A stretch of DNA of 64,000 nucleotides, from positions 56,475 through 120,474 of IMG/VR virus record IMGVR_UViG_3300029136_000219. One strand, given 5' to 3'. The notes beneath the pieces are model-generated. The model was not told the origin of the DNA. It saw only the letters and a program-made list of their open reading frames with translations, and did not search any database. This document shows, one piece after another, positions 17,308 to 54,123 of this stretch. The position numbers and the translations under genes are program-made. Every line of letters begins with the position of its first letter. Positions within the stretch are counted from its first letter, which is position 1. Source of the DNA: a virus.

Positions 17308-17976
17308 ATGTTACTTAAAAAAAATCAAACCATTGCTTATTATGGCGGAGCAAAGAATCTTGGAATTATCGATAAGGATGATGAAGTTCTTGAATCACAG
17401 GGAATTCTTATTTTGGAAAATCAAAATGATGAGAAGCAAGAAAAAATCAAGGTAGGCTTTAATCTTAATTACGATTGTGAAGAAGTTGATATTGATAAGA
17501 TAATTTCTTTAATGTCACCTGAACAGACAAATGTTGATGAAATCAATAAGAAGTTGGAAAACTTGCTTTTAAAAGAGTCTGAATCCTTTTGTAAATATTA
17601 CAAAAATACGAAACAAACATTTTTAAAAAAGACAAAGCAGGAAAATAAGCCAAGTATTATGAAATGTTACACTTATGACTTATGTAAAATTTTAGGAGAC
17701 TTTTTTGGTTCAGGTTTTTGCGTTACCTCACCAAGACATATTGATGGTCATTATCTTCTTTATTCTAATATTCTTAATAATAAGGCTTTACATTTGGAAG
17801 TAAAATACGAAGGAAATAGATTTGATTATTACGATGCTTTAGCTGATTTAAAAAATGGTGATTCAACAAAGTTTACTAACGGCGTTTTATACAATTGGAA
17901 ACCACTTCCGATGAACATTGAAAAAATTGCTGATATTATCAATGAGCAAAGCGGACAGATTGATTGGAGAAGGTGA
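17308..17976 (+). CDS. hypothetical protein
   Basis: ATG after ACGGAGGA. Confidence 0.55.
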   Translation: MLLKKNQTIAYYGGAKNLGIIDKDDEVLESQGILILENQNDEKQEKIKVGFNLNYDCEEVDIDKIISLMSPEQTNVDEINKKLENLLLKESESFCKYYKNTKQTFLKKTKQENKPSIMKCYTYDLCKILGDFFGSGFCVTSPRHIDGHYLLYSNILNNKALHLEVKYEGNRFDYYDALADLKNGDSTKFTNGVLYNWKPLPMNIEKIADIINEQSGQIDWRR

Positions 17977-40667: not shown

Positions 40668-43475
40668 ATGATTTATATTGAAAAAATATTGTCAATTGTA
40701 CTTGCAATGGCAGTTATGCTTAGCACTGTTGTTATAAGCGGAACTGCATTTGCGGAAGAAAGTACAGAAAAAATCTACACTATGGTGTCAGGTAGACTAA
40801 ATATTAAAACCGGAGTCGAAACAATACCTTCAAATTTTTTGGATAAAGACGATGTTAATAATGTTATAAGTATTACAATGCCTGATACTGTTACCGATAT
40901 TGGTTCAAGAGCCTTTAAAAACTGTGCTAATTTGTCTTATGTTAAATTATCAAAAAACATTACACAAATTAATGACAGTACGTTTTATGGATGCTCACGA
41001 TTAACAGACATTACAATTCCGGCAAAAGTAGAATGTATTGATAAATATGCATTTTATGGTTGCACCAATTTATCAAATATGAATTTTGAATCAAATACAA
41101 CACTAACACAAATTTTATCATACGCATTTTATAATTGTATCTCTTTATCTAACTTTAGTATACCTGATTCGGTTACAACATTGGGAACATATGCTTTTTA
41201 TAATTGTTCTTCACTTACTAATATAACGATTCCTGACAGTGTAAGCGTAGTGCCGGAAAAATGTTTTTATGGTTGTATTAATGCAACTGATTTAAAATTG
41301 TCAAAAACATTAACAGAAATAGGCAATAATGCATTTGAAAATTGTAAAACAATTAAAAGTATAAATATGCCTAATACTGTTGAAAAAGTAGGCGTGGCCG
41401 CATTTAACGGATGTAAGAATGTTAGAAATATTCATATTTCAACGAATCTTGGAAGTTTATCTAAGTCAGTATTTAAAAGTTGTTCAAGTCTAACTTCGTT
41501 AACAATTCCAAATAATATTTACGTAATTAACAGCAATGCATTTACTGATTGCAAATCACTCTTAAATATTATCGTTCCGGAAAATGTTTATATACTTGAC
41601 AATGAAGCTTTTAAAGGATGTACAAATCTTAAAACTTGCCAGTTGCCAACAAAACTCACTTCGATACCGTCAGGATTATTTAGTGGTTGTACTTCACTTG
41701 AAGCTATAACAATTCCTAAAACTGTTAAGTCAATTTCGGCATCGGCATTTTATAATTGTCAATCACTCAAAAATATTGATATTCCTGATACTGTTAAAAC
41801 AATCGGTTCAAGTGCATTTTCAGGTTGCAAGAATATTGAAACATTAAAATTATCAAATAATTGTGAGACAATAGGTGCAAATGCTTTTTACAATTGTTCC
41901 AAAATTCAAAATGTTGAATTGCCTGAGACTGTTAATACAATCGGCGAAAGTGCATTTGCTTATTGCTCTTCACTTTCTGATGTTACTGTAAAATCAAACC
42001 TCGATGCAATAGGTAATAACGCATTTAGCAAAATTAATCGAAATTGTGTATTTCATTGTTATTCAAATGGATATTCGTTTAATTATTTCAAATCTCTTGG
42101 CTATAACGTTGAATGTATAAATCATGACAAAGGCTCATATCAAGTTATAAAGGCAACTCCAAATACAAATGGCTCTTATGGTATTAGATGTAATGCTTGT
42201 GGTGCTATTCTTGAAGATAATAAAGTGATTTTAAGACCTTCATCAATTCATCTATCAACCAATTCTACACCGTATACAGGTAATGAGATAAAACCTGATG
42301 TAACTGTATATGATGCAAAAGGTAATGCTATTAGTAAATCTAATTATGAAGTTGTTTACAATAATAATGTTCATCCCGGTAATGCAACAGTAACAGTTAA
42401 TTTCAAGGGAAAATATTATGAGGGTTCAATGACCTCTGAATTTACAATTAGAACAACTGCAAATATTAATAATCCAATTTATGATTGGGATAATGCTACA
42501 GTAGTTGATTTTTCAAAATCAAAAACATACAAATATACAATTACAAATGATAATTCACTTTCTTATTTTAAAATTAATTCAGCAGATGCAGGATATTATG
42601 AAGTAAGAATATCGGGATATTATCCGGCAACTCCAGATTACAGTTGCTCTATGTTTATTAATAATACTCCTTTTGCAAACAATGCATCATATATTACAAA
42701 CAACGGAATTATAAATGTAAATTCAGCTAATTCAAACGGTGTACTTAAAAGTATTATGCGGTTAGAGCAGGGAAACAACTATGGTGTAATTAATGTTCAA
42801 TATGCTGCTAATAAAAATGCAGGGAAAACTATAACAGTTTCATTTACAAAACATACTTCACATTCAACAGTTGAAAATATAATACCGGCAAGTACAAGCA
42901 CTAACGGTGCAATAGTTAAAAAGTGTAAGGTATGTGGTGAAACAATATCAACTACCGTAATACCCCGAATAAGAAATGTTTCTTTAACTAAAACGAAATT
43001 TGTATATGACGGTAATTCAAGAACACCGTATGTAACTGTTTATAATACAAACGGTAATAAAATTTCATCAGGTTACTATGATGTTACATATAAAAATAAT
43101 AAAAATGTGGGTAAAGGTACAGTGATTATCACTTTAAAAGGTAATTATTCCGGTACTATTACAAAAACATTTAAAATTGTACCAGCAAGCATCAATATTT
43201 CAAGACTTTCGGTCAAAGGAAAGACAGTTACCGTTAAATGGAAAAAGCAGAAAAAACAAGTCACAGGCTATCAAATTAGGTATTCAACTAAATCTAATAT
43301 GAAGTCTTCAAAAACAATTACAATATCTAAAAAATCTACGTCTTCTAAAAAAATTTCTAAACTAAAAAAGAAAAAGAAATACTATATCCAAATAAGAACA
43401 TACAAAAAGATTGGTAAAACTAAGTATTATTCTAATTGGTCTAAAAAAGGTGTAGCTAAAATCGGCAAAAAATAA
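40668..43475 (+). CDS. BspA-like leucine-rich-repeat surface protein with Ig/FN3 modules
   Basis: Signal peptide. At least 15 repeats of IPxxVxxIGxxAFxxCxxLxxI. C-terminal K-rich FN3 module (GYQIRYSTKSN...YYIQIRTYKK) like the 52152 protein. Confidence 0.75.
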   Translation: MIYIEKILSIVLAMAVMLSTVVISGTAFAEESTEKIYTMVSGRLNIKTGVETIPSNFLDKDDVNNVISITMPDTVTDIGSRAFKNCANLSYVKLSKNITQINDSTFYGCSRLTDITIPAKVECIDKYAFYGCTNLSNMNFESNTTLTQILSYAFYNCISLSNFSIPDSVTTLGTYAFYNCSSLTNITIPDSVSVVPEKCFYGCINATDLKLSKTLTEIGNNAFENCKTIKSINMPNTVEKVGVAAFNGCKNVRNIHISTNLGSLSKSVFKSCSSLTSLTIPNNIYVINSNAFTDCKSLLNIIVPENVYILDNEAFKGCTNLKTCQLPTKLTSIPSGLFSGCTSLEAITIPKTVKSISASAFYNCQSLKNIDIPDTVKTIGSSAFSGCKNIETLKLSNNCETIGANAFYNCSKIQNVELPETVNTIGESAFAYCSSLSDVTVKSNLDAIGNNAFSKINRNCVFHCYSNGYSFNYFKSLGYNVECINHDKGSYQVIKATPNTNGSYGIRCNACGAILEDNKVILRPSSIHLSTNSTPYTGNEIKPDVTVYDAKGNAISKSNYEVVYNNNVHPGNATVTVNFKGKYYEGSMTSEFTIRTTANINNPIYDWDNATVVDFSKSKTYKYTITNDNSLSYFKINSADAGYYEVRISGYYPATPDYSCSMFINNTPFANNASYITNNGIINVNSANSNGVLKSIMRLEQGNNYGVINVQYAANKNAGKTITVSFTKHTSHSTVENIIPASTSTNGAIVKKCKVCGETISTTVIPRIRNVSLTKTKFVYDGNSRTPYVTVYNTNGNKISSGYYDVTYKNNKNVGKGTVIITLKGNYSGTITKTFKIVPASINISRLSVKGKTVTVKWKKQKKQVTGYQIRYSTKSNMKSSKTITISKKSTSSKKISKLKKKKKYYIQIRTYKKIGKTKYYSNWSKKGVAKIGKK

Positions 43476-43477
43476 CC

Positions 43478-43517
43478 AGTTCGTCCTCCGGATTGCTTCG
43501 GCACCGGGGGCTTTTTT
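43478..43517 (+). terminator. rho-independent terminator
   Basis: GC-rich hairpin CCGGattgcttcggcaCCGGGGGC, then a T run. Confidence 0.55.
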
Positions 43518-43519
43518 AT

Positions 43520-43588
43520 TAACATTTTGCGAATTTTGGCAAAAACAGCAAATTTTTTTGAAATATTCGCGATTAATAATATAGAACG
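43520..43588 (+). promoter_or_regulatory. conserved promoter-like cassette
   Basis: TTTTGCGAATTTTGGC...GAAATATTCGCGATTAATAATATAGAAC. Confidence 0.5.
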
Positions 43589-43629
43589 ACTGAAAAAAGT
43601 CTGAGTTTTAATAGGAAGGGTGGAATTAA

Positions 43630-44862
43630 GTGGAGTATAAAATCGCAAAACCGGTAAGACTAATTGAGCTTTTTGCAGGTATTGGAAGTCAAGCTAAAGC
43701 ACTTGAATTACTTGGTGTTGATTTTGAACATTGGAAAGTTTGTGAATTTGATGATTATGCTATGAAAAGCTATAACGCAGTTCATAATACAAATTTTAAA
43801 ACATCAGATATTCAAAATCTTACCGCATCCGACTTGGAAATAAAAGATAAAGATAAATATGAATATATAATGACTTATTCATATCCCTGTACTGATATTT
43901 CGATTGCCGGCAAGAAAGAAGGTATGGAAAGAAACAGTGGTACTCGTTCAAGTCTATTATGGGAAGTCGAAAGACTTTTGAAAGAATGTGGTGATAACAA
44001 ACCTCAAATTCTATTGATGGAGAATGTAAGAGAATGCCATAACGGAAAAAATGCTCCATTGTTTTTTGAATGGACTTCATTTCTCCGCTCTATAGGATAC
44101 AAAAACTTTTACACAGATATGGATGCTAAAAATTATGGTATTCCACAAACAAGAAAAAGATGTTTTATGTTATCTATTCTTGATGAAAATGCTTATTATG
44201 AATTTCCACAAGCTTGTGATTTAAACTATTCAGTAAAAGAATTTCTCAAAGATAAAGTTGATAAAAAATACTATGTAAAAGAAGAAACGGCATTACCACT
44301 TATAAAAAAGATGGAAAAAGAGTGCCCCAGTGCAACTATCATTGATGATACATACGGCTTTGATAACAGTGAGGTAAGATTTTTTCCTAATGTGTGCCCG
44401 ACACTTAGAGCTGCAAAGGCTAACTTAAAATGTATTGTCGCTATGAGAGGAAGAAATTCTGATAGCCTAAATCAAACACCCGGTGCTTCTACTGAACAAC
44501 GGCTTGAAAAAAATAAAACCAATTGCTGTAATACAATTACAACAGTACAAAAAGATAATCTTATTTTTGAAAACAAACAGTTGAGAACTCTTACACCAAA
44601 AGAAGTATGGAGATTGTTTGGTTTTGAGGATAAAGATGTAGAAAATGCATCTGAATTTGTTCCTGATACACAATTATATAAACAGGGAGGTAATTGTATT
44701 GTTGTCAATTGCCTTGTTGCCATATTAGGACAGCTATTTAAAGGTAAAGAAAGCGTATATCGTGAAATTGCCAAAAAGCCTTTATTTGATGTTGATTCTC
44801 AGAGTCAATTGACTTTTTCAAATGATTCTGATGACATAAATTTATTTAATTTAACAGCTTGA
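43630..44862 (+). CDS. dcm: DNA (cytosine-5)-methyltransferase
   Basis: GTG after AGGAAGGGTGG. Motif I ELFAGIGS, motif IV YPCTDIS (PC), motif VI LLMENV, motif X QGGN. Confidence 0.8.
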   Translation: MEYKIAKPVRLIELFAGIGSQAKALELLGVDFEHWKVCEFDDYAMKSYNAVHNTNFKTSDIQNLTASDLEIKDKDKYEYIMTYSYPCTDISIAGKKEGMERNSGTRSSLLWEVERLLKECGDNKPQILLMENVRECHNGKNAPLFFEWTSFLRSIGYKNFYTDMDAKNYGIPQTRKRCFMLSILDENAYYEFPQACDLNYSVKEFLKDKVDKKYYVKEETALPLIKKMEKECPSATIIDDTYGFDNSEVRFFPNVCPTLRAAKANLKCIVAMRGRNSDSLNQTPGASTEQRLEKNKTNCCNTITTVQKDNLIFENKQLRTLTPKEVWRLFGFEDKDVENASEFVPDTQLYKQGGNCIVVNCLVAILGQLFKGKESVYREIAKKPLFDVDSQSQLTFSNDSDDINLFNLTA

Positions 44863-44883
44863 TAAGAAAGGAGGAAAAACATA

Positions 44884-45324
44884 ATGGATGTTGAAAAAAA
44901 TGCTCAAATTAACAGCCAAAACAGCGTAAATAATGAAAATCAAGGTAACGTCTACTATTCTCCACCTCAACAAAATAGGGACATCAATAATGATCAATAT
45001 GTCGAAGTAAAAGGAAGTGCTGTTAATAACAACTCACAAAGCACATGTTCTGTTTCGGACAATGAAAATACATCTAATGACGGCTTGTCAATCACTTCAT
45101 TGGTATGTGGTATTCTATCGCTCTTTTTTGTACTTTTAGCAGTACCCGGTCTTATTACAGGTTACTTATATAAGAATAAGCCAATTACTTCTACTCAAGG
45201 AAGAAAATATGCAAAAGCAGGAATTATTTGCAGTTGGATTTCTTTTGGAATCTATATTCTATTATATATTTTGTTGCTAATATGCTTTCTTTTTCCATTG
45301 TTCCATGATGAGGTGATATTTTGA
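44884..45324 (+). CDS. DUF4190-like membrane protein (paralog 2)
   Basis: LITGYLYKNKPITSTQGRKYAKAGIICSWISFGIYIL. Confidence 0.6.
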   Translation: MDVEKNAQINSQNSVNNENQGNVYYSPPQQNRDINNDQYVEVKGSAVNNNSQSTCSVSDNENTSNDGLSITSLVCGILSLFFVLLAVPGLITGYLYKNKPITSTQGRKYAKAGIICSWISFGIYILLYILLLICFLFPLFHDEVIF

Positions 45325-45641
45325 CTGAACTCGAAAAAAATAATTTAGATATTGCAGTAGATAATATTATCTGTTTGTGCGACAAAGAAAGATGGAATTA
45401 TTTCTTTTTTGGTTACACGTTTTTTGTGTTTACACCATTCTCCGGTTGGAAGTTTGACCTTGATGCAAACAAAATTGAGCTTTACCATAAAAATTCTCGT
45501 ATTGAGCCAAATGCTGAAAAGCATAAACAAGAATATCATAACCAAAATAAATCTTTTTCCATTAATGATTTGTTCAGCTATATCAAAAATCATGATAATG
45601 TCTATTTACATAAGAAAAAAAGAGGTTTTGGCGCAATATGA
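45321..45641 (+). CDS. hypothetical protein
   Basis: TTG after GAGGTGA. Confidence 0.5.
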   Translation: MTELEKNNLDIAVDNIICLCDKERWNYFFFGYTFFVFTPFSGWKFDLDANKIELYHKNSRIEPNAEKHKQEYHNQNKSFSINDLFSYIKNHDNVYLHKKKRGFGAI

Positions 45642-46429
45642 AAAGCAAAAAGTTTAAAATTGCAATAGTGATACTCATTATATCTATATTAATAGGTATA
45701 GTAAGTGGAAGTTATTTGGTATACAAACATAATCTGTTAAATGATTACAACACAACAATTTCTCAAATTAAGGATAAAACTACTGACGAAGATAAAAAGT
45801 CTATTTCAAAGAAAAAGCTGAATTTTAAATCTTTAAAGAAAATTAATTCAGATGTAAAAGGATGGCTTTCAATTCCTAATACATATATTGATACACCGGT
45901 TACACAAACTAAAAACAATACATTTTATCTTAAACATAATTTTTATAAAAATTATAGTTTTTACGGAAATGCATTTCTTGACTACCAATGTAATGATAAA
46001 TCTCATTTGAAAATCATTTACGGTCATAATATGAGAGATAATGCACAATTTGGAACTTTGCATGATTTATACAAAAATCCTAATAAAGCAAAAAGCAATT
46101 CCATGATTACTTATGAAACTTCATCCGGAAAATCAGAATGGATTGTTGTTGGTGCTTATTATACAAACGGCACTGAGTTTGCACAAACCAGTGAACAATT
46201 ACGTAATGCTCTTGATAGCAATAGTGTTAATTCTATTGAAAACAAAACGAAACAACTTGATAAGCTTAAAAATAAATTTATTTATACTTCAGATGTTATA
46301 TTTGATGAATATGACAACTATATGGAGCTATACACTTGCTCTTATCAGGTTAAAGGTCAGCGCTTTGTCGTTGTTGCAAGAGAAAAACGTGAAAATGAAC
46401 TTATAACAAACATTGATTACAAAAAATAA
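45638..46429 (+). CDS. sortase (class B-like)
   Basis: N-terminal TM helix. GWLSIPNTYIDTPV, YGHN, LYTCSY (TLxTC-like catalytic Cys), RFVVVA. Confidence 0.7.
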   Translation: MKSKKFKIAIVILIISILIGIVSGSYLVYKHNLLNDYNTTISQIKDKTTDEDKKSISKKKLNFKSLKKINSDVKGWLSIPNTYIDTPVTQTKNNTFYLKHNFYKNYSFYGNAFLDYQCNDKSHLKIIYGHNMRDNAQFGTLHDLYKNPNKAKSNSMITYETSSGKSEWIVVGAYYTNGTEFAQTSEQLRNALDSNSVNSIENKTKQLDKLKNKFIYTSDVIFDEYDNYMELYTCSYQVKGQRFVVVAREKRENELITNIDYKK

Positions 46430-46750: not shown

Positions 46751-47371
46751 ATGGGATCAAGCTTTAATAAGTTCAAAATTGTTGATAAAGAAACAACAAT
46801 AGTTTACACACAAGATGTAAATGGAAACATCAATGGTAAATTCTATATTGATACTGAAGATTTGTCAAAAGTCCTTATGGTTAAATGTCGTATTTATAAC
46901 GGCAGAGTAATCTACGACCATCCGGCTGAGGATGGAAAATGTAGGGGGCAAAGACAACTTAGTAGATACATTATGGGTATTGCCGAAGATTACGATGTCA
47001 ATGACAGAAAAAGCTCAGTAGTTGTGGACCATATAGACCACAATCCTTTTAACAATAAAAAATCAAATTTAAGAATTATTACATATAAAGAAAACTTAAA
47101 AAATAGAACAAATGCAAATGATTGTGAATTTTTTAAAGGCATAGCTTTTCGTAATAATTATTATATTGTGAGTATCTGTTACAAGAAAAATTCTGTTTAT
47201 TTAGGACAATACAAAAAATTTCATGAGGCTCTTTTTGCTCGTTTTTTTGCGGAAAAAATGATTTTCGGTGAAGTTAAACAAATGGAAAGACCTACAAAAT
47301 TGAGTGAAGATAGAGAAAAGGAAATAGCTAATAAGGTTATTGCCAAGGTTGTGCTCCTCCAAACTGCCTGA
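46751..47371 (+). CDS. HNH homing-type endonuclease
   Basis: VVVDHIDHNPFNNKKSNLRII gives an HNH motif (DH...N...N). Confidence 0.65.
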   Translation: MGSSFNKFKIVDKETTIVYTQDVNGNINGKFYIDTEDLSKVLMVKCRIYNGRVIYDHPAEDGKCRGQRQLSRYIMGIAEDYDVNDRKSSVVVDHIDHNPFNNKKSNLRIITYKENLKNRTNANDCEFFKGIAFRNNYYIVSICYKKNSVYLGQYKKFHEALFARFFAEKMIFGEVKQMERPTKLSEDREKEIANKVIAKVVLLQTA

Positions 47372-47467: not shown

Positions 47468-49264
47468 GTGCCGGAAAAAGAAAAAAAGAATCAATATATT
47501 TTATCAATGGGCTTAGAAATTAATGCTGATGATAAAATTTATCTTGATAAGTATTTTGAATTTGTAAGAAAAATGCAAAATTATTTTATTTCTTATCAGC
47601 TAAAAAAATATAACAAAATGGTAAGAGAAACAAATTATCAAGAATTAAAAATTCAAATTGATAATATTGATAAAGCTATTTCTAATTTTTACAGACAAAT
47701 TATAAACCGTCAAAAAGTTATTGATGAAGGTGAAATATCTAAATGTGAAATCACTTCATACAAGAATGAAATTGCAGAATTGAAAAAAGATATTTCTTCT
47801 TTGAAAAAAGAAAAATCAAAATATCAAAAGCAAATTTATGAACTTTTGAAAGAATACAGGTTTAGTGATTTAAGTTTTAAATCCGATGTAGCTATATTTG
47901 ACAAAATTGATTATTTCACAAAACCTTGTTACAAAACAAAGAATGGTAAGCTTGCAAGAGATAAAAATGGTAACAAAATTCCTATTCTCGATGAAAACGG
48001 AAATGTAAAAAGAAAATGTTTTGTCTCTTCATTAGTGAGAAAATATTCTATTGCTGCACCGATTTGGTCAGCATTTGATAAAAAGTTCAAGGAAAACGGT
48101 GCAGTCCATTTTAAAAGCTTTTTTAATAAAAAATCAGTCAGCTCTATTGCATTCCCAGTTGGTAATTCTTTCAAAGGTAACAATGCTTTTGTTATTCCTT
48201 CTGTAGGCAAAATAATTAAATATAAAATACCAAGAACCCAATACGAAAAGGAAGTATTTAACAAAGAAAATGTTAATGTTATCCGAATTAAAAGGATTTG
48301 GAAGAATACAAAATACAGCTATTCGGTTCAGTTTACTATAACAGGTGAACCTGTGTTAAGGAAAGACAAAGATAATTGTGTCAAACATCCACTTGGCACT
48401 GGTGTAGCAGGTGTAGGTATAAGTTTAAATGAATGTTGGATTTGCACTGAGAACACATTAAAAAGAGTTTCTTTAGTTCCACCTGATGCTTATGAGTTTG
48501 ATAATGAAATAAAACAAATTGAAAGAGCAATGGATAGAAGTAAGCGTGCTACTAATCCAAATAATTTTGATGAAAAGGGTAGGGCAAAGAGCTTTTACGA
48601 AACGCCTGACCCTGATAACCCAGACAAAATCATCAAGTCAAAGCTCCGTTGGAGATTTTCAAAGCATTACAGAAAACTAAGTCAAAGAAAAGCTTATTTG
48701 GAAGGTATTAATGCCAGAAAGCGTAAGCTTTATGACGAAAACCTTGTGAATGAATTATTGCTGTATTTCAATGAAATCAATATTCAAAAGAATGATTTCA
48801 AGAGAACTCAAATGAGTAAACAAAAAGTCGGTGACAGCGCCGATGAAAAGAAAAAGGCTGGTTTACATATTAAAGAAGCATCACCTTCACAGTTCGTTGA
48901 AATTCTTAAAAGAAAAGTCATCAGCCACGGTGGTAAAGTAAATATCATTACTAAAAAGGAATGTCAAGCAACAGAATTCAATCATATAGACGGTAAGTTC
49001 TATGATATGCCTGTTTCTAACAGGTGGTTTGGTATGAGTGATGGTAATGTTCTTCAAAGAGATGCTCATACGGCTTTTAATCTATTGACACTTAATGATA
49101 TAGAAAAAAGCAACAAACTTTATGATGACTTTTTAAAACAACATTCTGCCGAACTTGAAAAGTTTAATGTTGTTGCACCTGAACAGGTAAATATGGTTAC
49201 TTGCAGTCAGGCAAAAGAAAAAAGAAAGTCAGCAAGAAAAACAAAAAAGAAAAATATTGCATGA
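47468..49264 (+). CDS. TnpB/Cas12-like RuvC-fold protein (candidate compact type V effector)
   Basis: GTG after AAAGGAGG. C-terminal QRDAHTAFNLL matches the RuvC-III RDxNAAxNI motif. GVGISLNE occupies the RuvC-I GIDLG position, and NELLLYFNEINIQKND the RuvC-II position. Beta-rich WED-like block (NTKYSYSVQFTITGE). N-terminal coiled-coil. Degenerate zinc-finger region. Confidence 0.55.
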   Translation: MPEKEKKNQYILSMGLEINADDKIYLDKYFEFVRKMQNYFISYQLKKYNKMVRETNYQELKIQIDNIDKAISNFYRQIINRQKVIDEGEISKCEITSYKNEIAELKKDISSLKKEKSKYQKQIYELLKEYRFSDLSFKSDVAIFDKIDYFTKPCYKTKNGKLARDKNGNKIPILDENGNVKRKCFVSSLVRKYSIAAPIWSAFDKKFKENGAVHFKSFFNKKSVSSIAFPVGNSFKGNNAFVIPSVGKIIKYKIPRTQYEKEVFNKENVNVIRIKRIWKNTKYSYSVQFTITGEPVLRKDKDNCVKHPLGTGVAGVGISLNECWICTENTLKRVSLVPPDAYEFDNEIKQIERAMDRSKRATNPNNFDEKGRAKSFYETPDPDNPDKIIKSKLRWRFSKHYRKLSQRKAYLEGINARKRKLYDENLVNELLLYFNEINIQKNDFKRTQMSKQKVGDSADEKKKAGLHIKEASPSQFVEILKRKVISHGGKVNIITKKECQATEFNHIDGKFYDMPVSNRWFGMSDGNVLQRDAHTAFNLLTLNDIEKSNKLYDDFLKQHSAELEKFNVVAPEQVNMVTCSQAKEKRKSARKTKKKNIA

Positions 49265-49280
49265 CAGCAATGTTGATATA

Positions 49281-49427
49281 GGTAGACTTAGCTACCTAAA
49301 ACTACCGGTAAACGCATTTTTGTGTTTGGTAGTAATGAAATAATTAAGGTTAAGCAGTTAGTTGGTTTGCGTTTGTCAGAACTTAATAGAGCTGTTTGAC
49401 AAGATTATACAGTGTAATTAATTTGAG
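49281..49427 (+). promoter_or_regulatory. conserved structured leader 1 (~147 nt) with sigma70-like promoter TTGACA-17-TAATTT abutting the first repeat
   Basis: Three copies (49281, 50588, 51416) about 90% identical. Hairpin GGTAGacttagCTACC, which shows compensatory change to GGCTG/CAGCC in copy 2. Confidence 0.6.
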
Positions 49428-49529
49428 GTTTTGGTACTGTAGTAGATTACACTACTCTAAAAGAAATATATTGGGAGTGTCTGAAAAATCCATGTTTTGG
49501 TACTGTAGTAAATTACACTACTCTAATTA
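49428..49529 (+). CRISPR. mini CRISPR array 1 (2 repeats, 1 spacer)
   Basis: 36-bp repeat GTTTTGGTACTGTAGTAGATTACACTACTCTAAAAG. 30-bp spacer AAATATATTGGGAGTGTCTGAAAAATCCAT. Second repeat is degenerate at its 3-prime end. Confidence 0.7.
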
Positions 49530-49578
49530 CACCATTTGGTGTGTTTTATATAAAAAATAATTTAGGAGGAAAAAATAT

Positions 49579-49680
49579 ATGTCATTCAATATGGTTATGG
49601 TTATTATTTGTGCTGTAATTCTTGTTGCTTGCATTATTGCTCTTATTGTAAGAGGCATTAAGAGTAAGCGCAATAAGTAA
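49579..49680 (+). CDS. tiny membrane peptide (33 aa)
   Basis: TAGGAGGA RBS. MSFNMVMVIICAVILVACIIALIVRGIKSKRNK. Paralog at 53224. Confidence 0.4.
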   Translation: MSFNMVMVIICAVILVACIIALIVRGIKSKRNK

Positions 49681-49735
49681 TTAAGTACAAATACAGCATC
49701 CCCGGATACGCTGATTAAACATTATCCGGGAATGT

Positions 49736-49823
49736 GACAATGTAGTTTAACGGTAAAACACAAAAGTTGTTTTTTTGATCCTCCTTCGACTTTTGGATGT
49801 AAGTTCAAATCTTACCATTGCCA
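49736..49823 (+). tRNA. atypical tRNA-like gene (class-II-like long variable arm, anticodon loop GTTGTTT, no encoded CCA)
   Basis: Acceptor stem GACAATG/CATTGCC with one mismatch. D-stem GTTT/AAAC. Anticodon stem CAAAA/TTTTG. Variable arm ATCC...GGAT. T-arm GTAAG-TTCAAAT-CTTAC. Anticodon identity ambiguous. Confidence 0.4.
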
Positions 49824-49832
49824 ATAAGATAT

Positions 49833-49915
49833 GCTGATGTGATGGAATGGCAGACAGAAGAGACTTAAAATCTCTTGGTGGAAACATCGTGTGAGTTCGA
49901 CTCTCACCATCAGCA
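49833..49915 (+). tRNA. tRNA-Leu(TAA)
   Basis: Acceptor GCTGATG/CATCAGC. Anticodon stem-loop AGAGA-CTTAAAA-TCTCT. Long variable arm. T-arm GTGAG-TTCGACT-CTCAC. CCA encoded. Confidence 0.75.
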
Positions 49916-50266
49916 CCACTGCAGGGCCCAAGTGAAAGGTCTAAGAAGTTTCACAACGGTATAAGATATTTCTTGGCTGGTTTTTGCCGTGTGCTGGAAT
50001 GCACTGAATCAATAACCTTACAGACAGTATCAAAAAAGTTAGGACTTTTTGTATTGGAAGGGTTGCTGACCTTTCCGTAGTTTTTCTAATGATTTAAAGG
50101 AAGTTAAGCAAAAGTGTACATATTACTTTACTGAATTTAATCACCGTATTAACACGCTGATAGACAGTATTTCTCCCACAATTCGGGAAGTAAAGAGATC
50201 TATTGGTTGAAAGTAAATGGATACGGCAGAACAGTGCACATCTGCCGTATCACGATTATTAAATAC

Positions 50267-50338
50267 GCAGATATGATGTAATCGGTAGCATACAACTCTT
50301 CCACAGTTGGTGTGCGAGTTCAAACCTCGTTATCTGCT
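50267..50338 (+). tRNA. tRNA-Gly(TCC)
   Basis: Acceptor GCAGATA/TATCTGC. Anticodon stem-loop CAACT-CTTCCAC-AGTTG. T-arm GCGAG-TTCAAAC-CTCGT. CCA encoded. Confidence 0.75.
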
Positions 50339-50347
50339 CCAAAATAT

Positions 50348-50420
50348 TCTCCATTAGTTCAGAAGGTAGAACGGTAGACTGTTAATCTATATGTCATTGG
50401 TTCAAATCCAATATGGAGAG
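50348..50420 (+). tRNA. tRNA-Asn(GTT)
   Basis: Acceptor TCTCCAT/ATGGAGA. Anticodon loop CTGTTAA. T-arm ATTGG-TTCAAAT-CCAAT. CCA encoded. Confidence 0.75.
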
Positions 50421-50426
50421 CCAAAC

Positions 50427-50499
50427 GGACCGTTAGCTTAGTAGGTAAAGCAACCGGCTCATAACCGGTAAACCATGGGTTCAAATCCTATACGGTCCA
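50427..50499 (+). tRNA. tRNA-Met(CAT), elongator-type (or Ile-lysidine)
   Basis: Acceptor GGACCGT/ACGGTCC with base-paired 1:72. Anticodon stem-loop ACCGG-CTCATAA-CCGGT. CCA encoded. Confidence 0.75.
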
Positions 50500-50505
50500 C
50501 CATAT

Positions 50506-50578
50506 GTGTCATTAGCTCAGTAGGTAGAGCAACAGACTTTTAATTTGCAGGTCAAGGGTTCAATTCCCTTATGACACA
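50506..50578 (+). tRNA. tRNA-Lys(TTT)
   Basis: Acceptor GTGTCAT/ATGACAC. D-arm GCTCAGTAGGTAGAGC. Anticodon loop CTTTTAA. T-arm AAGGG-TTCAATT-CCCTT. CCA encoded. Confidence 0.75.
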
Positions 50579-50587
50579 CCACTTAAT

Positions 50588-50736
50588 AGGGCTGAATTAG
50601 CAGCCTGATGCTACTGGTAAACACATTTTTGTGTTTGGTAGTAATGAAATAATCAAGGTTAAGCAGTTAGTTGGTTTGCATTTGTCAGAACTCAATAGAG
50701 CTGCTTAACAAGATTATATAGTGTAATTAATTTGAG
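50588..50736 (+). promoter_or_regulatory. conserved structured leader 2 with promoter TTAACA-17-TAATTT
   Basis: See leader 1. Hairpin GGCTGaattagCAGCC. Second stem AAACAC/GTGTTT, where copy 1 has a G-U wobble. Confidence 0.6.
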
Positions 50737-50904
50737 GTTTTTGTACTGTAGTAAATTACACTACTCTAAAAGCGCCGCAGAATTGCTTCCACGGTGGTCT
50801 TTGTTTTGGTACTGTAGTAAATTACACTACTCTAAAAGGACAGCTACAGTTTTAGGCACGGTTTTCTTGTTTTTGTACTGTAGTAAATTACACTACTCTT
50901 AACG
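50737..50904 (+). CRISPR. mini CRISPR array 2 (3 repeats, 2 spacers)
   Basis: Repeats GTTTTTGTACTGTAGTAAATTACACTACTCTAAAAG, GTTTTGGTACTGTAGTAAATTACACTACTCTAAAAG and a degenerate terminal repeat ...CTCTTAACG. Spacers CGCCGCAGAATTGCTTCCACGGTGGTCTTT and GACAGCTACAGTTTTAGGCACGGTTTTCTT (30 bp each). Confidence 0.75.
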
Positions 50905-51408: not shown

Positions 51409-51415
51409 TATATAT

Positions 51416-51563
51416 GGGTAGACTTAGCTACCTGAAACTACCGGTAAACGCATTTTTGTGCTTGGTAGTAATGAAATAATCGAGATTAAGCAGTTAGTTG
51501 GTTTGCATTCGTCAGAACTTAATAGAGCTGTTTGATAAGATTATGTAGTCGTAATAATTTGAG
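51416..51563 (+). promoter_or_regulatory. conserved structured leader 3 with promoter TTGATA-17-TAATTT
   Basis: See leader 1. Coordinates +/-1. Confidence 0.55.
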
Positions 51564-51727
51564 GTTTTAGAACCATATATAACTACACTACTCTAAAAGG
51601 ACGAGGCTTATGTTGATTTCGGCGGCACGGTTTTAGAACCATATATAACTACACTACTCTAAAAGGTCTGAGATAGTTGCAACAATAAAAAACTTTGGAA
51701 CTGTATTATATTACACTATTTTTTAAA
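51564..51727 (+). CRISPR. mini CRISPR array 3 (2 good repeats plus a degenerate third, 2 spacers)
   Basis: Repeat GTTTTAGAACCATATATAACTACACTACTCTAAAAG. Its 3-prime 18 nt are shared with arrays 1 and 2; the 5-prime part is divergent. Spacers GACGAGGCTTATGTTGATTTCGGCGGCACG and GTCTGAGATAGTTGCAACAATAAAAAACTT. Coordinates +/-1. Confidence 0.65.
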
Positions 51728-51744
51728 AAAAGGAGATAAAAATT

Positions 51745-52151: not shown

Positions 52152-53102
52152 ATGAGTTTAGCTAAGAAAGTATTATCGGTTGGTATTGCTTCTATTATGG
52201 CAATGTCAGCTATTGGAGTTGGCACTACTGCACTTGCCGAACCAATTAATTCTGTTCAGTCGGCTACTTCAATTTCACTAAATGAGAGTAAAACTGTGAC
52301 CTTGAAATATGGTGATATTGGTAATTATGATGACATCTCGGAAGATACTGTTTACTATAAGTTTACTGCTCCGACCACTAATTATTATGAATTTACCTTA
52401 ACAGGTTACAAGACAAGAATTGATAATAATGACCCAAGTGCTTATATTGATATAACAGATGAATATGGCGTCAATGCATCGTCAAGTGGGGGCTTATTTA
52501 ATCCGTATTTTAATGATGTAAAATCAATTGCCTATTTGGAACAAGGAAAGTCATATATAATCAATGTCTTTTACTCACCAATTGGTACTCAAGAGTACAA
52601 TTCAAAGGACTATGCCGAAACAGCAATTACACTAACTGTTTCTCCACATACACATGACATTACAAGTGTCGTTAATGACGGATATACAGACTACACCTGC
52701 AAGCGTTGCAATTATTCATATACCGAATTTAAACCGTTACCGACATCTCCTTCACAGCCTACACAGGCTCCTACAAGCACTGTTACTCCAATAACAGCAA
52801 GTAAGGTATCAAAGCCAAAAAAGACTAAAATTAAAAAGGTAAAGGCTGCTAAGAAGGCATTGGCAGTTACTTGGAATAAAGTATCCGGCGTAAAAGGTTA
52901 TCAAGTACAGGCTGCAACAGACAAAAAGTTCAAAAAGAACAAGAAAACTGTTACAATCAAGAAGCAAAAAACTACTAAGACAACCGTAAAGAAACTTAAA
53001 GCTAAGAAAAAGTATTACGTAAGAGTAAGAACTTACAAGACCATAAATGGAAAAAAGGTTTACTCGGCTTGGTCAAGTGTAAAAAATGTAAAAACTAAAT
53101 AG
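52152..53102 (+). CDS. secreted protein with C-terminal K-rich FN3 module
   Basis: Signal peptide. C-terminus KGYQVQAATDKKF...YYVRVRTYKTINGKKVYSAWS parallels the LRR protein tail. Confidence 0.65.
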   Translation: MSLAKKVLSVGIASIMAMSAIGVGTTALAEPINSVQSATSISLNESKTVTLKYGDIGNYDDISEDTVYYKFTAPTTNYYEFTLTGYKTRIDNNDPSAYIDITDEYGVNASSSGGLFNPYFNDVKSIAYLEQGKSYIINVFYSPIGTQEYNSKDYAETAITLTVSPHTHDITSVVNDGYTDYTCKRCNYSYTEFKPLPTSPSQPTQAPTSTVTPITASKVSKPKKTKIKKVKAAKKALAVTWNKVSGVKGYQVQAATDKKFKKNKKTVTIKKQKTTKTTVKKLKAKKKYYVRVRTYKTINGKKVYSAWSSVKNVKTK

Positions 53103-53117
53103 ACTTTTTTGTAAATC

Positions 53118-53160
53118 TAAAAAGCACCATAGAATTTTGATTTTCTATGGTGCTTTTTTA
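53118..53160 (+). terminator. rho-independent terminator
   Basis: AAGCACCATAGAAttttgattTTCTATGGTGCTT, then a T run. Confidence 0.7.
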
Positions 53161-53175
53161 TTTTTCTAAAAATAA

Positions 53176-53600
53176 AAAACTTGCGCGATATATATATTGA
53201 ACGAAGCAGTTAGGAGGAATGTTATGACACTTACAGGAAACATAATTTTGCTGATTGTATGTTCAATTACATTTATTGCAAGTTTGACGGCTCTCATTTT
53301 GAGAAGTGTCAAAAAACACAAAAAATGAAAAAATTTAATATTCAAAAATTTTAAAAAGTTGCGCGATATATAAAGTGAAAGGTGAATAACACTCATTTGA
53401 TATTAGAAATTTGGAGCTTGATTATAACCTTTCTGAAAATAAAAAAATTGCGCGATATAGAAAATGGTGAGGTTAAACCGCACTGGCGTAAATATCGTAT
53501 TGAAAATTATAAAAAATCAAATAGAACCTGCTTTGAGTGTATATTTTGAGGATTTGTATTTGATTTTATGAAAAAAAATTTTCTTGCGCGATATCTTAAG
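53176..53600 (+). repeat. four short promoter-like repeats (A/T-run + TTGCGCGATAT + A/T) within 430 bp
   Basis: Copies at about 53176, 53357, 53443 and 53578. Core shared with the long cassette (TTGCGATTTATATAG). Confidence 0.5.
53224..53328 (+). CDS. tiny membrane peptide (34 aa)
   Basis: AGGAGGAA RBS. MTLTGNIILLIVCSITFIASLTALILRSVKKHKK. Paralog of 49579. Confidence 0.4.
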   Translation: MTLTGNIILLIVCSITFIASLTALILRSVKKHKK

Positions 53601-53843
53601 TGACAGCACTAATAATCGAGCTGTTCAAAAGGCTGGATAAGCCGTTATTATGATTGTTTTAGTCTGAATATTACATAAAAATACTTGAATTAAAGGGCTT
53701 ATACAAACATTGTTATTTACTCTTCGGGCAAAAATAATTCACTTTTTTGATGATATCAGGCTTGAACATATATCTATTCAATGCATCTAAACAAAATACT
53801 ACTTTCCGCATTGGAAATCTAATGAAAGGAGAACATATAGTAC

Positions 53844-54011
53844 ATGAAAACTATTTTCGAGGAATACGGTACAGTAATCATCGTTGCAATTGCTATCGTT
53901 GCTCTTATTGCTATCGTAACATTTATCCTTGGCGATGACCAGATTAAGGGCAAGTTCAAGGATCTTGTAACAAGCTTCTTCAATCAGGTTAAGTTTGACG
54001 CAGCAGCTTAA
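53844..54011 (+). CDS. Flp-family pilin-like peptide (leaderless)
   Basis: MKTIFEEYGTVIIVAIAIVALIAIVTFILG resembles the Flp mature N-terminus (AIEYGLIAxxIAV...LG). AAAGGAG RBS. Confidence 0.55.
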   Translation: MKTIFEEYGTVIIVAIAIVALIAIVTFILGDDQIKGKFKDLVTSFFNQVKFDAAA

Positions 54012-54049
54012 TTAAATTGATTTGAAAAGGTTTTAAGTCTTGAACAGAC

Positions 54050-54097: not shown

Positions 54098-54123
54098 AAA
54101 ATGATTTTTGTGGGTGAATTTAT

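What the first reader, a model, noticed from the sequence alone, without database searches (positions are those of the whole stretch)
47468..49264. RuvC-I position appears to carry Ser instead of the catalytic Asp, so the protein may be a nuclease-dead RNA-guided DNA binder
Where TnpB/Cas12 proteins have GIDLG with the catalytic D, this protein reads G-V-G-I-S-L-N-E. The RuvC-III Asp (RDAHTAFNL) is retained. The canonical CxxC...CxxC zinc finger between RuvC-II and RuvC-III is replaced by a single-Cys/His segment (KKECQATEFNHIDGKFYDMPVSNRWFGMSDGN). If the alignment holds, this resembles catalytically inactivated relatives such as Cas12k or TldR-type TnpB-derived repressors. It would suggest guide-directed binding or repression, for example of a competing element or host gene, rather than cleavage.
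Basis: inference. Interest (0 to 1): 0.6.

Follow-up and report, generated by a model that had tools for sequence, protein, structure and literature searches.

The report
Phage-borne nuclease-dead TnpB/Cas12-like guide-RNA protein
A large gut phage carries a small Cas12-like protein that has lost two of its three DNA-cutting residues but is still conserved and sits beside three tiny CRISPR-like guide cassettes aimed at other phages, so it most likely silences rival phages by binding their DNA, not by cutting it.

Summary
The ORF (47468-49264, +, 598 aa) is real. Sequence and predicted fold both place it in the TnpB/Cas12 family. The missing zinc finger is real but is shared with intact relatives, so it says nothing about inactivation.

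The gene is under purifying selection (dN/dS 0.12). It is followed by three copies of a structured ~145-nt scaffold RNA, each fused to a CRISPR-like array of one or two spacers. Seven near-identical phages carry at least 16 different spacers. One spacer matches a terminator hairpin in 22 gut Clostridia-type phage contigs. A sibling phage's spacer matches this window perfectly at 17490-17519.

Best reading: a phage-borne, nuclease-inactivated, RNA-guided DNA binder used in conflict between phages. It works like Cas12m, Cas12c or TldR but appears to be a separate lineage. Binding and silencing are inferred, not shown. A Q503E change paired with E440Q leaves a rearranged pocket possible.

The parts
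47468..49264 (+). Effector gene: 598-aa TnpB/Cas12-fold protein, GTG start, with a degenerate RuvC triad G317/Q440/D532
48416..48418 (+). Codon for Gly317, at the position of the RuvC-I catalytic Asp (ISDra2 TnpB D191)
48785..48787 (+). Codon for Gln440, at the position of the RuvC-II catalytic Glu (ISDra2 TnpB E278)
48974..48976 (+). Codon for Glu503. It replaces the near-invariant Gln of the 'KASQFNH' motif after beta5, so it pairs with E440Q as an apparent E/Q swap. Possible relocated carboxylate (unresolved).
   Evidence: precedent for relocated RuvC-II Glu in PMC10691335
49061..49063 (+). Codon for Asp532, the retained RuvC-III Asp (LQRDAHTAF)
49280..49427 (+). Scaffold RNA copy 1: three stem-loops followed by a stretch that can pair with the repeat. 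It starts 16 nt after the effector's stop codon.
49428..49529 (+). Mini-array 1: two 36-nt repeats and one 30-nt spacer (49464-49493). The same spacer is present in four of the seven sibling phages.
50588..50736 (+). Scaffold RNA copy 2. It starts 7 nt after tRNA-Lys.
50737..50904 (+). Mini-array 2: three repeats and two spacers. Spacer 50773-50802 matches 22 phage contigs at 28 of 30 positions.
51415..51563 (+). Scaffold RNA copy 3
51564..51728 (+). Mini-array 3: variant repeat GTTTTAGAACCATATATAACTACACTACTCTAAAAG present twice, plus a degenerate third repeat (about 51693-51728). Spacers are at 51600-51629 and about 51666-51692.
17490..17519 (-). Protospacer inside ORF 17272-17976. It matches 30 of 30 positions of the array-3 spacer of sibling phage L001.

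Best explanation
The gene encodes a compact derivative of an IS200/IS605 TnpB from a branch that lacks the zinc finger. It keeps the WED-REC-RuvC fold but has lost the RuvC-I Asp (Gly317) and the RuvC-II Glu (Gln440). It therefore cannot perform canonical two-metal DNA cleavage.

It is encoded by a large, AT-rich gut phage. Directly downstream are three modules, each a structured ~145-nt scaffold RNA fused to a CRISPR-like array of 36-nt repeats with one or two spacers.

Proposed mechanism (inferred):
1. The scaffold plus the conserved 3' part of the repeat (TACACTACTCTAAAAG) acts as an omegaRNA/tracrRNA-like handle, and the 30-nt spacer that follows is the guide.
2. The ribonucleoprotein binds complementary DNA in rival phages, including close relatives.
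3. Binding blocks transcription or replication without cutting, as shown for Cas12m and Cas12c and, for host genes, TldR.

Spacers are exchanged quickly between otherwise near-identical phages although no adaptation genes are nearby. This suggests acquisition in trans or cassette recombination.

What is shown: the fold, the homology, the residue substitutions, purifying selection, the conserved RNA structure, spacer diversity and two protospacer matches. What is inferred: RNA loading, DNA binding, lack of cleavage and the silencing outcome.
For: Family and fold:
- Sequence homology to proteins that sources name TnpB or transposase.
- The active relative P0010 sits next to a Y1 TnpA fragment.
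- AF2 model pLDDT 83.6, pTM 0.71.
- Foldseek: ISDra2 TnpB E 4e-11, Cas12m2 TMq 0.49.

Dead site:
- G317/Q440/D532 by MAFFT and hhalign, anchored on ISDra2 D191 and E278.
- 120 of 175 relatives keep DED.
- No conserved acidic substitute on beta1-beta3.

Still functional:
- dN/dS 0.116 against an 88%-identical homolog and 0.22 against a 55%-identical one.
- 32 of 60 strongly conserved non-catalytic columns are retained.

Guide RNA:
- Three scaffold-plus-array modules.
- 52 base pairs, 99.4% of cells paired, three compensatory pairs.
- The inner stem of stem-loop 2 has a different sequence but is still paired in L029.

Targets:
- At least 16 distinct spacers in seven phages whose effectors are 97-99% identical.
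- Spacer 50773-50802 matches 22 IMG/VR phage contigs at 28 of 30 positions. Both mismatches are U:G wobbles at positions 23 and 26, far from the repeat side.
- The sibling phage's spacer matches the window 30 of 30.
- Two spacers from different phages overlap on opposite strands of one unknown target.

Context and precedent:
- No Cas1, Cas2, Cas4, TnpA or Tn7 genes within about 10 kb, by the precomputed Pfam annotation of the syntenic locus.
- DNA binding without cleavage as an interference mechanism is established for V-M and V-C (PMC10442227, PMC12669027).
Against: - No biochemical data exist. Binding, guide loading and absence of cleavage are all inferred.
- Asp532 is retained, and Q503E pairs with E440Q, so a rearranged pocket with residual activity is not excluded.
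- Only 2 of about 17 spacers have identifiable targets, and no shared 5' flank (TAM) emerges from them: TTTWGRC versus TGTTCA.
- The 55%-identical homolog P0006 has no detectable repeats or scaffold in its 4.7-kb contig.
- Two other members of that sub-clade are truncated: P0008 next to an IS200/IS605 element, and P0007, which breaks off before RuvC-III in the alignment.
- One sibling phage (L001) carries an in-frame deletion of aa 177-369 of the effector.
- With RuvC dead, it is unclear how units with two spacers are processed.
Confidence: 0.62

Rival explanations
1. The RuvC site is rearranged, not dead. The E440Q/Q503E swap and the retained D532 keep a working or one-metal pocket. The protein would then still nick or cut DNA, or process its own scaffold-array transcripts, or clamp the non-target strand as Cas12m2 does with its HDD triad.
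For: - E503 replaces a Gln that is present in 115 of 132 relatives with an intact RuvC-II. This occurs in all 7 clade members, including the 55%-identical one.
- Relocated RuvC-II glutamates are described for whole TnpB clades (PMC10691335).
- The Cas12m2 HDD site binds one Mg2+ and the non-target strand (PMC10442227).
- D532 and its motif QRDAHTAF are conserved.
Against: - The RuvC-I Asp is replaced by Gly, and no conserved acidic residue lies nearby on beta1-beta3.
- From general knowledge, RuvC-I Asp-to-Ala mutants of Cas12, TnpB and Cas9 are nuclease-dead.
Confidence: 0.15
2. The arrays do not belong to this protein. They are phage mini-arrays that borrow a host Cas nuclease, as in virus-borne mini-CRISPR arrays. 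The TnpB-like protein would be an unrelated domesticated regulator with its own unseen guide.
For: - The 55%-identical homolog has no repeats in its contig.
- There are no adaptation genes in the locus, yet spacers turn over.
- The 36-nt repeat and 30-nt spacer geometry is common in host class 2 systems (general knowledge).
Against: - Scaffold 1 starts 16 nt after the effector's stop codon, and the same holds in the 88%-identical homolog.
- Each array has its own structured scaffold, which a host-dependent array would not need.
- The repeat has no exact match in 185,579 species-representative genomes.
- The mismatches of the one well-sampled protospacer lie far from the repeat, which fits a type V/TnpB seed and not a Cas9 seed.
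Confidence: 0.1
3. The dead effector is a targeting module that recruits another enzyme. Candidates are the HNH homing-endonuclease-like gene just upstream (46751-47371), a host factor, or RNA polymerase/sigma as in dCas12f-sigmaE.
For: - An HNH_3 / homing-endonuclease gene lies directly upstream in the window and in sibling phage L001. The 88%-identical locus L029 has an unannotated 201-aa gene in that position.
- The gene upstream of the 55%-identical homolog gives weak Sigma70_r4 and RNAP alpha-CTD hits.
- Precedents exist in Cas12k and dCas12f-sigmaE (PMC13472631).
Against: - The HNH gene is not conserved next to the 55%-identical homolog.
- Such HNH genes are common selfish elements in phages (general knowledge).
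- The sigma-like hits are below the Pfam thresholds and come from a truncated ORF.
- No Tn7 genes are present.
Confidence: 0.08
4. The gene is a decaying remnant of an IS200/IS605 TnpB with no current function.
For: - Its relatives are IS-borne TnpBs.
- One sibling phage has an internal deletion, and two distant homologs are truncated.
Against: - dN/dS is 0.12 at dS 0.51.
- The full-length ORF is kept in at least six independent assemblies.
- The clade has specific insertions and conserved residues.
- The scaffold and arrays are conserved alongside it.
- No TnpA or IS ends are nearby.
Confidence: 0.03

Closest known systems
Cas12m (type V-M), e.g. Cas12m2, PDB 8HHL
   Same: Similar size (about 596 aa versus 598 aa). 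It is derived from TnpB, has a degenerate RuvC triad, has a coiled-coil REC expansion relative to TnpB, and interferes with mobile elements by tight DNA binding and transcriptional silencing without cleavage (PMC10442227). It is the best full-length Foldseek match (TMq 0.49).
TldR (TnpB-like nuclease-dead repressors; Wiegand et al., PMC10705468)
   Same: It meets the operational definition: a TnpB-like protein with two or more RuvC DED substitutions. Like some TldRs it is non-transposon, phage-encoded and next to a structured guide RNA, and it is predicted to bind DNA without cutting.
   Different: TldRs use one omegaRNA-like guide with a conserved guide sequence aimed at a host promoter (fliC, oppA), and they often lack the C-terminal RuvC/ZnF part. 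Here the guides sit in repeat-flanked mini-arrays, differ between sibling phages, target other phages, and RuvC-III is retained. The protein's closest relatives are catalytically intact TnpBs at about 25-36% identity, which points to a separate inactivation; it was not compared directly with the fliC/oppF TldR sequences.
IS200/IS605 TnpB of the branch without a zinc finger, and Cas12n (RdCas12n, PDB 9J09/9UDI)
   Same: These are the closest relatives by sequence (E 1e-24 to 1e-36). They share the MDRSKRATNPNN and QRD..AF motifs and the absence of CxxC pairs. RdCas12n is the best PDB hit for the family profile.
   Different: Those proteins keep D/E/D and are about 480 aa. At least P0010 sits beside a Y1 TnpA gene. 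The window protein has G/Q/D and about 110 extra residues (a longer coiled coil and two beta-hairpin insertions), has no transposase nearby, and is linked to arrays.
Phage-encoded type V systems (Cas12j/CasPhi, CasLambda, Cas12r of Thermus Lalka phages)
   Same: A compact Cas12-like effector and short arrays carried by a phage, no adaptation module, and spacers aimed at competing mobile elements (Cas12r: bioRxiv 10.64898/2026.04.20.719267).
Plasmid type IV-A3 CRISPR-Cas (bioRxiv 10.1101/2023.06.23.546257)
   Same: A functional analogy only: a system carried by a mobile element that has no nuclease and no adaptation module. Its title and abstract report inter-plasmid conflict and spacer acquisition in trans.
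   Different: It is a class 1 multi-subunit complex with a DinG helicase and has no evolutionary relationship to this protein.

Membership tests
TnpB/Cas12 superfamily (RuvC-fold RNA-guided proteins) | Detectable sequence homology to TnpB/Cas12 proteins | tested here: met
   phmmer E 1e-24 to 1e-34 to proteins named TnpB or transposase. hhalign to the profile of intact relatives gives probability 99.94%, E 1e-36. The window protein itself has no direct Pfam, NCBIfam or PADLOC hit.
TnpB/Cas12 superfamily (RuvC-fold RNA-guided proteins) | WED-REC-RuvC bilobed fold | tested here: met
TnpB/Cas12 superfamily (RuvC-fold RNA-guided proteins) | Intact RuvC D-E-D catalytic triad | tested here: not met
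   G317 / Q440 / D532, anchored on ISDra2 D191 and E278.
TnpB/Cas12 superfamily (RuvC-fold RNA-guided proteins) | C4 zinc finger (TNB) between RuvC-II and RuvC-III | tested here: not met
   There is a single Cys in aa 441-531. The same holds for intact relatives: 92 of 175 have no Cys there. Loss of the zinc finger in some TnpB branches is described (PMC10691335).
Type V CRISPR-Cas effector (Cas12, including candidate V-U variants) | TnpB-derived effector gene adjacent to a CRISPR array | tested here: met
   Three arrays lie within 2.5 kb downstream. This is conserved in seven related phages. The 55%-identical homolog has none in its short contig.
Type V CRISPR-Cas effector (Cas12, including candidate V-U variants) | Variable spacers that match mobile genetic elements | tested here: met
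   At least 16 distinct spacers. One matches 22 phage contigs and one matches a sibling phage, i.e. this window. The rest have no match in GenBank phages or PLSDB plasmids, and the eight spacers scanned against IMG/VR by their first 20 nt gave no further match.
Type V CRISPR-Cas effector (Cas12, including candidate V-U variants) | Adaptation module (cas1/cas2/cas4) in the locus (optional for many V-U variants and phage systems) | tested here: not met
   The precomputed Pfam annotation of the syntenic locus L001, +/-10 kb, shows no Cas1, Cas2 or Cas4.
Type V CRISPR-Cas effector (Cas12, including candidate V-U variants) | Placement in a named subtype (V-M, V-O, V-P, V-U*) on the Cas12/TnpB tree | not testable with these tools
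   Reference sequences and trees for V-O, V-P and V-U6-50 are not available here. PADLOC Cas12 models hit the active relative P0010 (Cas12u2, 5e-14) but not the window protein.
Cas12m (V-M) | Sequence membership in the Cas12m family, with an HCCC zinc finger | tested here: not met
   No sequence hit to Cas12m chains in the PDB. Identity in Foldseek alignments is 8-9%. There is no zinc-finger ligand set.
Cas12k (V-K CAST) | Association with Tn7-like tnsB/tnsC/tniQ genes | tested here: not met
TldR (TnpB-like nuclease-dead repressor) | TnpB-like protein with two or more substitutions in the RuvC DED motif, outside a transposon | tested here: met
   D->G and E->Q. No TnpA nearby. The definition is taken from PMC10705468.
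TldR (TnpB-like nuclease-dead repressor) | A single omegaRNA-like guide with a conserved guide sequence aimed at a host promoter, with a linked partner gene (fliC, oppF) | tested here: not met
   Guides are repeat-flanked and differ between sibling phages. The identified targets are phage sequences. There is no fliC or oppF neighbour.
dCas12f-sigmaE RNA-guided transcription activators | Operonic ECF sigma factor (rpoE) next to the dead effector | tested here: not met
   There is no sigma gene next to the window gene. Only weak, sub-threshold Sigma70_r4 and alpha-CTD hits were found in a truncated ORF upstream of the 55%-identical homolog.

The most novel reading that the evidence does not exclude
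This is a phage-borne adaptive silencing system. The RuvC pocket has been remodelled, not merely broken: RuvC-I Asp is lost, the RuvC-II Glu has moved to position 503 through an E/Q swap, and Asp532 is kept. The remodelled pocket would form a one-metal clamp for the displaced DNA strand, or an RNase that matures the scaffold-array transcripts. The one- or two-spacer cassettes, each with its own omegaRNA-like scaffold, would be renewed in trans, capturing the step at which an omegaRNA becomes a tracrRNA plus CRISPR array inside a virus.
Probability: 0.2. Interest if true: 0.75.

Novelty: new variant of a known kind. Interest (0 to 1): 0.58.

Why it matters
Inactivated TnpB/Cas12 proteins that act by binding (Cas12m, Cas12c, Cas12k, TldR, dCas12f) are known. 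Phage-borne active Cas12 systems aimed at rival elements are also known. This locus combines the two: a nuclease-dead effector with fast-changing guides inside a large gut phage, aimed at other phages.

If confirmed, it would show three things:
- Viruses use programmable silencing, not only cutting, against competitors, possibly including their own close relatives.
- A natural, compact (598 aa), zinc-finger-free DNA binder with a defined guide scaffold exists and could be used for CRISPRi or base-editor fusions.
- There is a living intermediate between an omegaRNA and a tracrRNA plus CRISPR array, which bears on how type V systems arise from transposons.

The paired E440Q/Q503E change is also a testable case of active-site remodelling.

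Tried and rejected
- **Direct library searches with the window protein.** Pfam, NCBIfam, PHROGs, PADLOC and PDB sequence searches gave only coiled-coil noise. Homology was found only through the large protein databases.
- **A deeper profile search.** It added no new sequences.
- **E322 as a relocated catalytic residue.** Rejected, because it is not conserved.
- **Zinc-finger loss as evidence of inactivation.** Rejected, because intact relatives share it.
- **HNH neighbour as a conserved partner.** It is not conserved next to the 55%-identical homolog.
- **Self-targeting by the window's own spacers.** None within the window at up to 3 mismatches.
- **Further protospacers.** Seven of the eight spacers scanned against IMG/VR by their first 20 nt gave nothing beyond the arrays themselves. 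The conserved spacer 1 had no match in GTDB genomes. Spacers had no match in GenBank phages or PLSDB plasmids.
- **A host CRISPR with the same repeat.** No exact match in GTDB genomes.
- **A TAM.** The two protospacers share no clear 5' or 3' flank.
- **Rfam.** Only tRNAs.
- **A covariance model of the scaffold.** It found nothing next to P0006, P0007, P0011 or the IS-borne relative P0010. Homology of the scaffold to an omegaRNA therefore remains unshown.
- **The closest named phage.** No GenBank phage resembles the window.
- **The sibling phage's own copy of the 17.5-kb protospacer.** The look-up returned only one contig, probably the window's own source.
- **The literature.** No paper describing this family was found.
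Full report
**Observation.** It contains every quoted peptide. The window protein has no significant hit in Pfam, NCBIfam, PADLOC or PDB sequences; the only hits are low-complexity coiled-coil matches to its N-terminal helices. A search of the large protein collection shows what it is. Eight close homologs (54-98% identity) are followed by about 480-aa proteins that their sources call "transposase" or "RNA-guided endonuclease TnpB family protein", at E 1e-24 and below. An exhaustive HMMER pass found 678 relatives at E<1e-3. One active relative (P0010) lies beside a Y1 TnpA fragment, so it is a true IS200/IS605 TnpB.

**Fold.** An AlphaFold2 model built on 32 sequences is confident (pLDDT 83.6, pTM 0.71).
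- Foldseek against the PDB returns ISDra2 TnpB (E 4e-11), Cas12m2 (TMq 0.49), ISFba1 TnpB, Cas12p, Cas12f, LaTranC and Fanzor2.

The protein is therefore a TnpB/Cas12-fold protein. Compared with its ~480-aa relatives it has about 110 extra residues: a longer N-terminal coiled coil and two beta-hairpin insertions. The Cas12m2 structure paper ties a comparable coiled-coil REC2 insertion to recognition of a longer heteroduplex (PMC10442227).

**Catalytic residues.** The intact relatives read VG(I/L)DIGTST, (I/V)xVE(T/D)M and QRD(L)YSAF. A profile of the family aligns these columns with ISDra2 TnpB D191 and E278 and with the RDL motif of RdCas12n (9J09/9UDI). In those columns the window protein has Gly317, Gln440 and Asp532. 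Three alignments agree:
- MAFFT with 20 and 32 sequences.
- MAFFT with 175 sequences.
- hhalign against a profile built only from 19 DED-intact relatives (probability 99.94%, E 1e-36, 459 aligned columns).

Ser319 replaces the following Gly. The proposed refuting residue, E322, is E,E,C,Y,R within the clade and Thr in active relatives, and no other acidic residue on beta1-beta3 is conserved.

The missing CxxC...CxxC is real. However, 92 of 175 family members, mostly DED-intact, have no Cys there. Zinc-finger loss in some TnpB branches is also documented (PMC10691335). It is therefore not evidence of inactivation.

**Not a pseudogene.** Against the 88%-identical homolog (L029), dN is 0.059 and dS 0.51, giving dN/dS 0.116. 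Against the 55%-identical homolog, dN/dS is 0.22. Of 60 columns conserved at 90% or more in active relatives, 32 are retained, including the MDRSKRATNPNN block. G/Q/D is shared by the 55%-identical P0006. Across the wider subfamily, 120 of 175 sequences keep DED and about 45 show various losses (Y/N with C-terminal truncation, A/C-Y/M-T, N/N and others). This TnpB branch has therefore produced dead derivatives repeatedly, in line with the polyphyletic pattern reported for TldRs (PMC10705468) and for TnpB/Cas12 in general (PMC10691335; PMC12669027).

**An unresolved detail.** In the window's clade, the Gln of the post-beta5 motif KASQFNH is Glu (E503) in all 7 members. That position is Gln in 115 of 132 relatives with an intact RuvC-II. 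Together with E440Q this looks like an E/Q swap. Whole TnpB clades are known in which the RuvC-II glutamate has moved elsewhere (PMC10691335). The degenerate HDD site of Cas12m2 still binds one Mg2+ and the non-target strand. I could not measure distances because the model coordinates are not exposed. A remodelled pocket that is non-nucleolytic, or only an RNase, therefore remains possible. The loss of the RuvC-I Asp still argues strongly against canonical DNA cleavage (general knowledge of RuvC two-metal catalysis).

**Guide RNA modules.** Downstream of the gene lie three modules, not one array.

| Module | Scaffold | Array | Spacers |
|---|---|---|---|
| 1 | 49280-49427 | 49428-49529 | 1 |
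| 2 | 50588-50736 | 50737-50904 | 2 |
| 3 | 51415-51563 | 51564-about 51728 | 2 |

- Array 3 uses a variant repeat.
- The 3' 16 nt of the repeat (TACACTACTCTAAAAG), which abut the spacer, are identical in all functional repeats.
- The so-called leaders are 82-91% identical and fold into three stem-loops.
- On 13 distinct copies from seven phages, 52 predicted pairs are 99.4% paired. There are three compensatory pairs, about ten wobble-compatible one-sided changes, and no shuffle reaches the observed covariation score.
- The 88%-identical homolog has the scaffold directly after its stop codon, with a different but still paired inner stem in stem-loop 2.
- The scaffold's 3' end can pair with the repeat: 9-10 bp in modules 1 and 2, and a shifted 6 bp in module 3 (direct reading).

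This anatomy looks like an omegaRNA or tracrRNA fused to the first repeat, not like a plain CRISPR leader. Scaffold 2 starts 7 nt after tRNA-Lys, so tRNA processing could release it (inference). Rfam has no matching family.

**Spacers and targets.** Six further assemblies of closely related phages carry the effector at 97-99% identity. Their contigs range from 10.9 kb to 413 kb; the larger ones are 115, 192, 198 and 413 kb.
- Together with the window, they hold at least 16 different spacers in arrays that never exceed two spacers. Only spacer 1 is shared widely.
- Spacer 50773-50802 matches 22 IMG/VR contigs of 5.9-74 kb at 28 of 30 positions. The one examined, L027, is visibly much more GC-rich than the window. 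Both mismatches are U:G wobbles at positions 23 and 26, on the side away from the repeat. This fits a type V/TnpB seed.
- That target is a terminator-like hairpin just after a sigma-factor-like gene.
- The target phages resemble Christensenellales and Acutalibacteraceae phages and human faecal phage contigs.
- The array-3 spacer of sibling phage L001 matches this window perfectly at 17490-17519 (minus strand), inside ORF 17272-17976.
- Two spacers from different phages overlap by 11 nt on opposite strands of one unidentified, HTH-like target.
- The other spacers have no match in GenBank phages or PLSDB; eight were scanned against IMG/VR by their first 20 nt and only the one above matched, and only spacer 1 was scanned against GTDB genomes.
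- The two protospacers share no obvious flank (TTTWGRC versus TGTTCA), so no TAM can be called.
- No cas1, cas2, cas4, tnpA or Tn7 genes lie within about 10 kb, and the repeat has no exact match in 185,579 species-representative genomes.

**Mechanism.** The most economical reading has three steps:
1. The protein loads scaffold-repeat-spacer RNA.
2. It binds complementary DNA in competing phages, possibly including close relatives, as in superinfection exclusion.
3. It interferes by occupancy, not by cleavage.

This is experimentally established for Cas12m and Cas12c and predicted for other inactivated type V subtypes (PMC10442227, PMC11013384, PMC12669027). Spacer renewal without an adaptation module recalls plasmid type IV-A3 systems, whose title and abstract report spacer acquisition in trans. 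The steps shown are the fold, the substitutions, selection, RNA structure, spacer turnover and two target matches. RNA loading, binding, non-cleavage and the biological outcome are inferred.

**Weaknesses.**
- P0006 (55% identity) shows no repeats or scaffold in its 4.7-kb contig.
- P0008 ends next to an IS200/IS605 element, and P0007 breaks off before RuvC-III in the alignment.
- The L001 effector has an in-frame deletion of aa 177-369, between two similar peptide motifs. This may be real or an assembly artefact.

**Comparison and novelty.**
- By function it resembles Cas12m, Cas12c and TldR.
- By descent it appears to be a separate inactivation within a zinc-finger-less IS200/IS605 TnpB branch whose nearest solved relative by sequence is RdCas12n.
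- It fails the defining features of Cas12m (sequence, HCCC zinc finger), Cas12k (Tn7 genes), dCas12f-sigmaE (rpoE) and the characterised TldRs (single conserved guide, fliC/oppF).
- It meets the operational TldR criterion (two or more DED substitutions) and the minimal type V criterion (a TnpB-derived effector beside arrays whose spacers match mobile elements).
- I could not test whether it falls in a catalogued V-U*, V-O or V-P group.
- No paper describing it was found.

I classify it as a new variant of a known kind: a phage-borne, nuclease-inactivated, TnpB-derived effector with scaffold-fused mini-arrays. Interest is moderate to fairly high. It is a natural compact DNA binder, a possible case of viral programmable silencing, and an apparent intermediate between an omegaRNA and a CRISPR array.

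Noticed in passing
window 49735-50581: Six tRNA genes (Thr-TGT, Leu-TAA, Gly-TCC, Asn-GTT, Met-CAT, Lys-TTT) lie between guide modules 1 and 2. Scaffold 2 begins 7 nt after tRNA-Lys, so the tRNAs and guide RNAs may be co-transcribed and separated by tRNA-processing enzymes.
   Followed up: partly
window 48974-48976 (E503) and 48785-48787 (Q440): An apparent E/Q swap. The RuvC-II Glu has become Gln, while the near-invariant Gln of the KASQFNH motif has become Glu in all 7 clade members. This may be a relocated carboxylate. Distances could not be measured.
   Followed up: partly
L001:10001-11218 (sibling phage, THOM19-1 scaffold_577): The effector carries an in-frame deletion of aa 177-369 (WED and RuvC-I region) between two similar peptide motifs (DENGNVK / DEKGRAK). 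The arrays are intact. This is either a genuine loss or an assembly artefact.
   Followed up: partly
L030:194-3371: The 56%-identical homolog P0008 is cut short at its 3' end. An IS200/IS605 element (Y1 TnpA plus a canonical zinc-finger TnpB) lies immediately downstream on the opposite strand.
   Followed up: no
L036:8001-9398 (P0016), also P0013 and P0018: A second dead clade of the same TnpB subfamily: Tyr at RuvC-I, Asn at RuvC-II, and the C-terminal RuvC-III region missing. Here it lies next to a TraG/VirD4-type coupling protein, which suggests a conjugative element. At least 12 of the 175 relatives share this pattern.
   Followed up: partly
L002:2-691: The truncated ORF just upstream of the 55%-identical homolog P0006 gives weak, sub-threshold hits to Sigma70_r4 and the RNA polymerase alpha CTD. 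This recalls the dCas12f-sigmaE systems but is far from established.
   Followed up: no
L006:1270-1299 and L033:3737-3766: Two spacers from different sibling phages overlap by 11 nt on opposite strands. They reconstruct a 49-nt target, GATCAAGGAGGCAGCAGGTACTCTTGGTGTTAGTACAGATTGGATGAGT (reading frame IKEAAGTLGVSTDWMS, HTH-like). No source for it was found.
   Followed up: partly
window 50773-50802 versus L027:4433-4462; window 17490-17519: In both identified targets the guide would be antisense to the local transcript, because it pairs with the coding strand. With only two cases this may be chance.
   Followed up: no
window 46751-47371: An HNH_3 / homing-endonuclease-like gene lies directly upstream of the effector. 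It is also annotated there in sibling phage L001; the 88%-identical locus L029 has an unannotated 201-aa gene in that position. It is absent next to the 55%-identical homolog.
   Followed up: partly
window 49579-49681: A small ORF (MSFNMVMVIIICAVILVACIIALIVRGIKSKRNK, a predicted single membrane helix) with its own ribosome-binding site lies between array 1 and the tRNA cluster. Array 1 is followed by a terminator-like hairpin at 49528-49543.
   Followed up: no
window 40668-46429 and 52152-57275: The neighbourhood is unusual for a phage: a 935-aa leucine-rich-repeat protein, a C5 DNA methylase, a DUF4190 membrane protein, a sortase-like protein, an fn3-like secreted protein and a T2SSE-type ATPase. 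Related contigs reach 192-413 kb, so the element may be a jumbo phage.
   Followed up: partly
window 50737-50772 (repeat of array 2): From memory only, not tested: the 5' end of the repeat (GTTTTTGTACT...) resembles the start of the Streptococcus thermophilus CRISPR1 type II-A repeat. This could hint at which host adaptation machinery renews the spacers.
   Followed up: no
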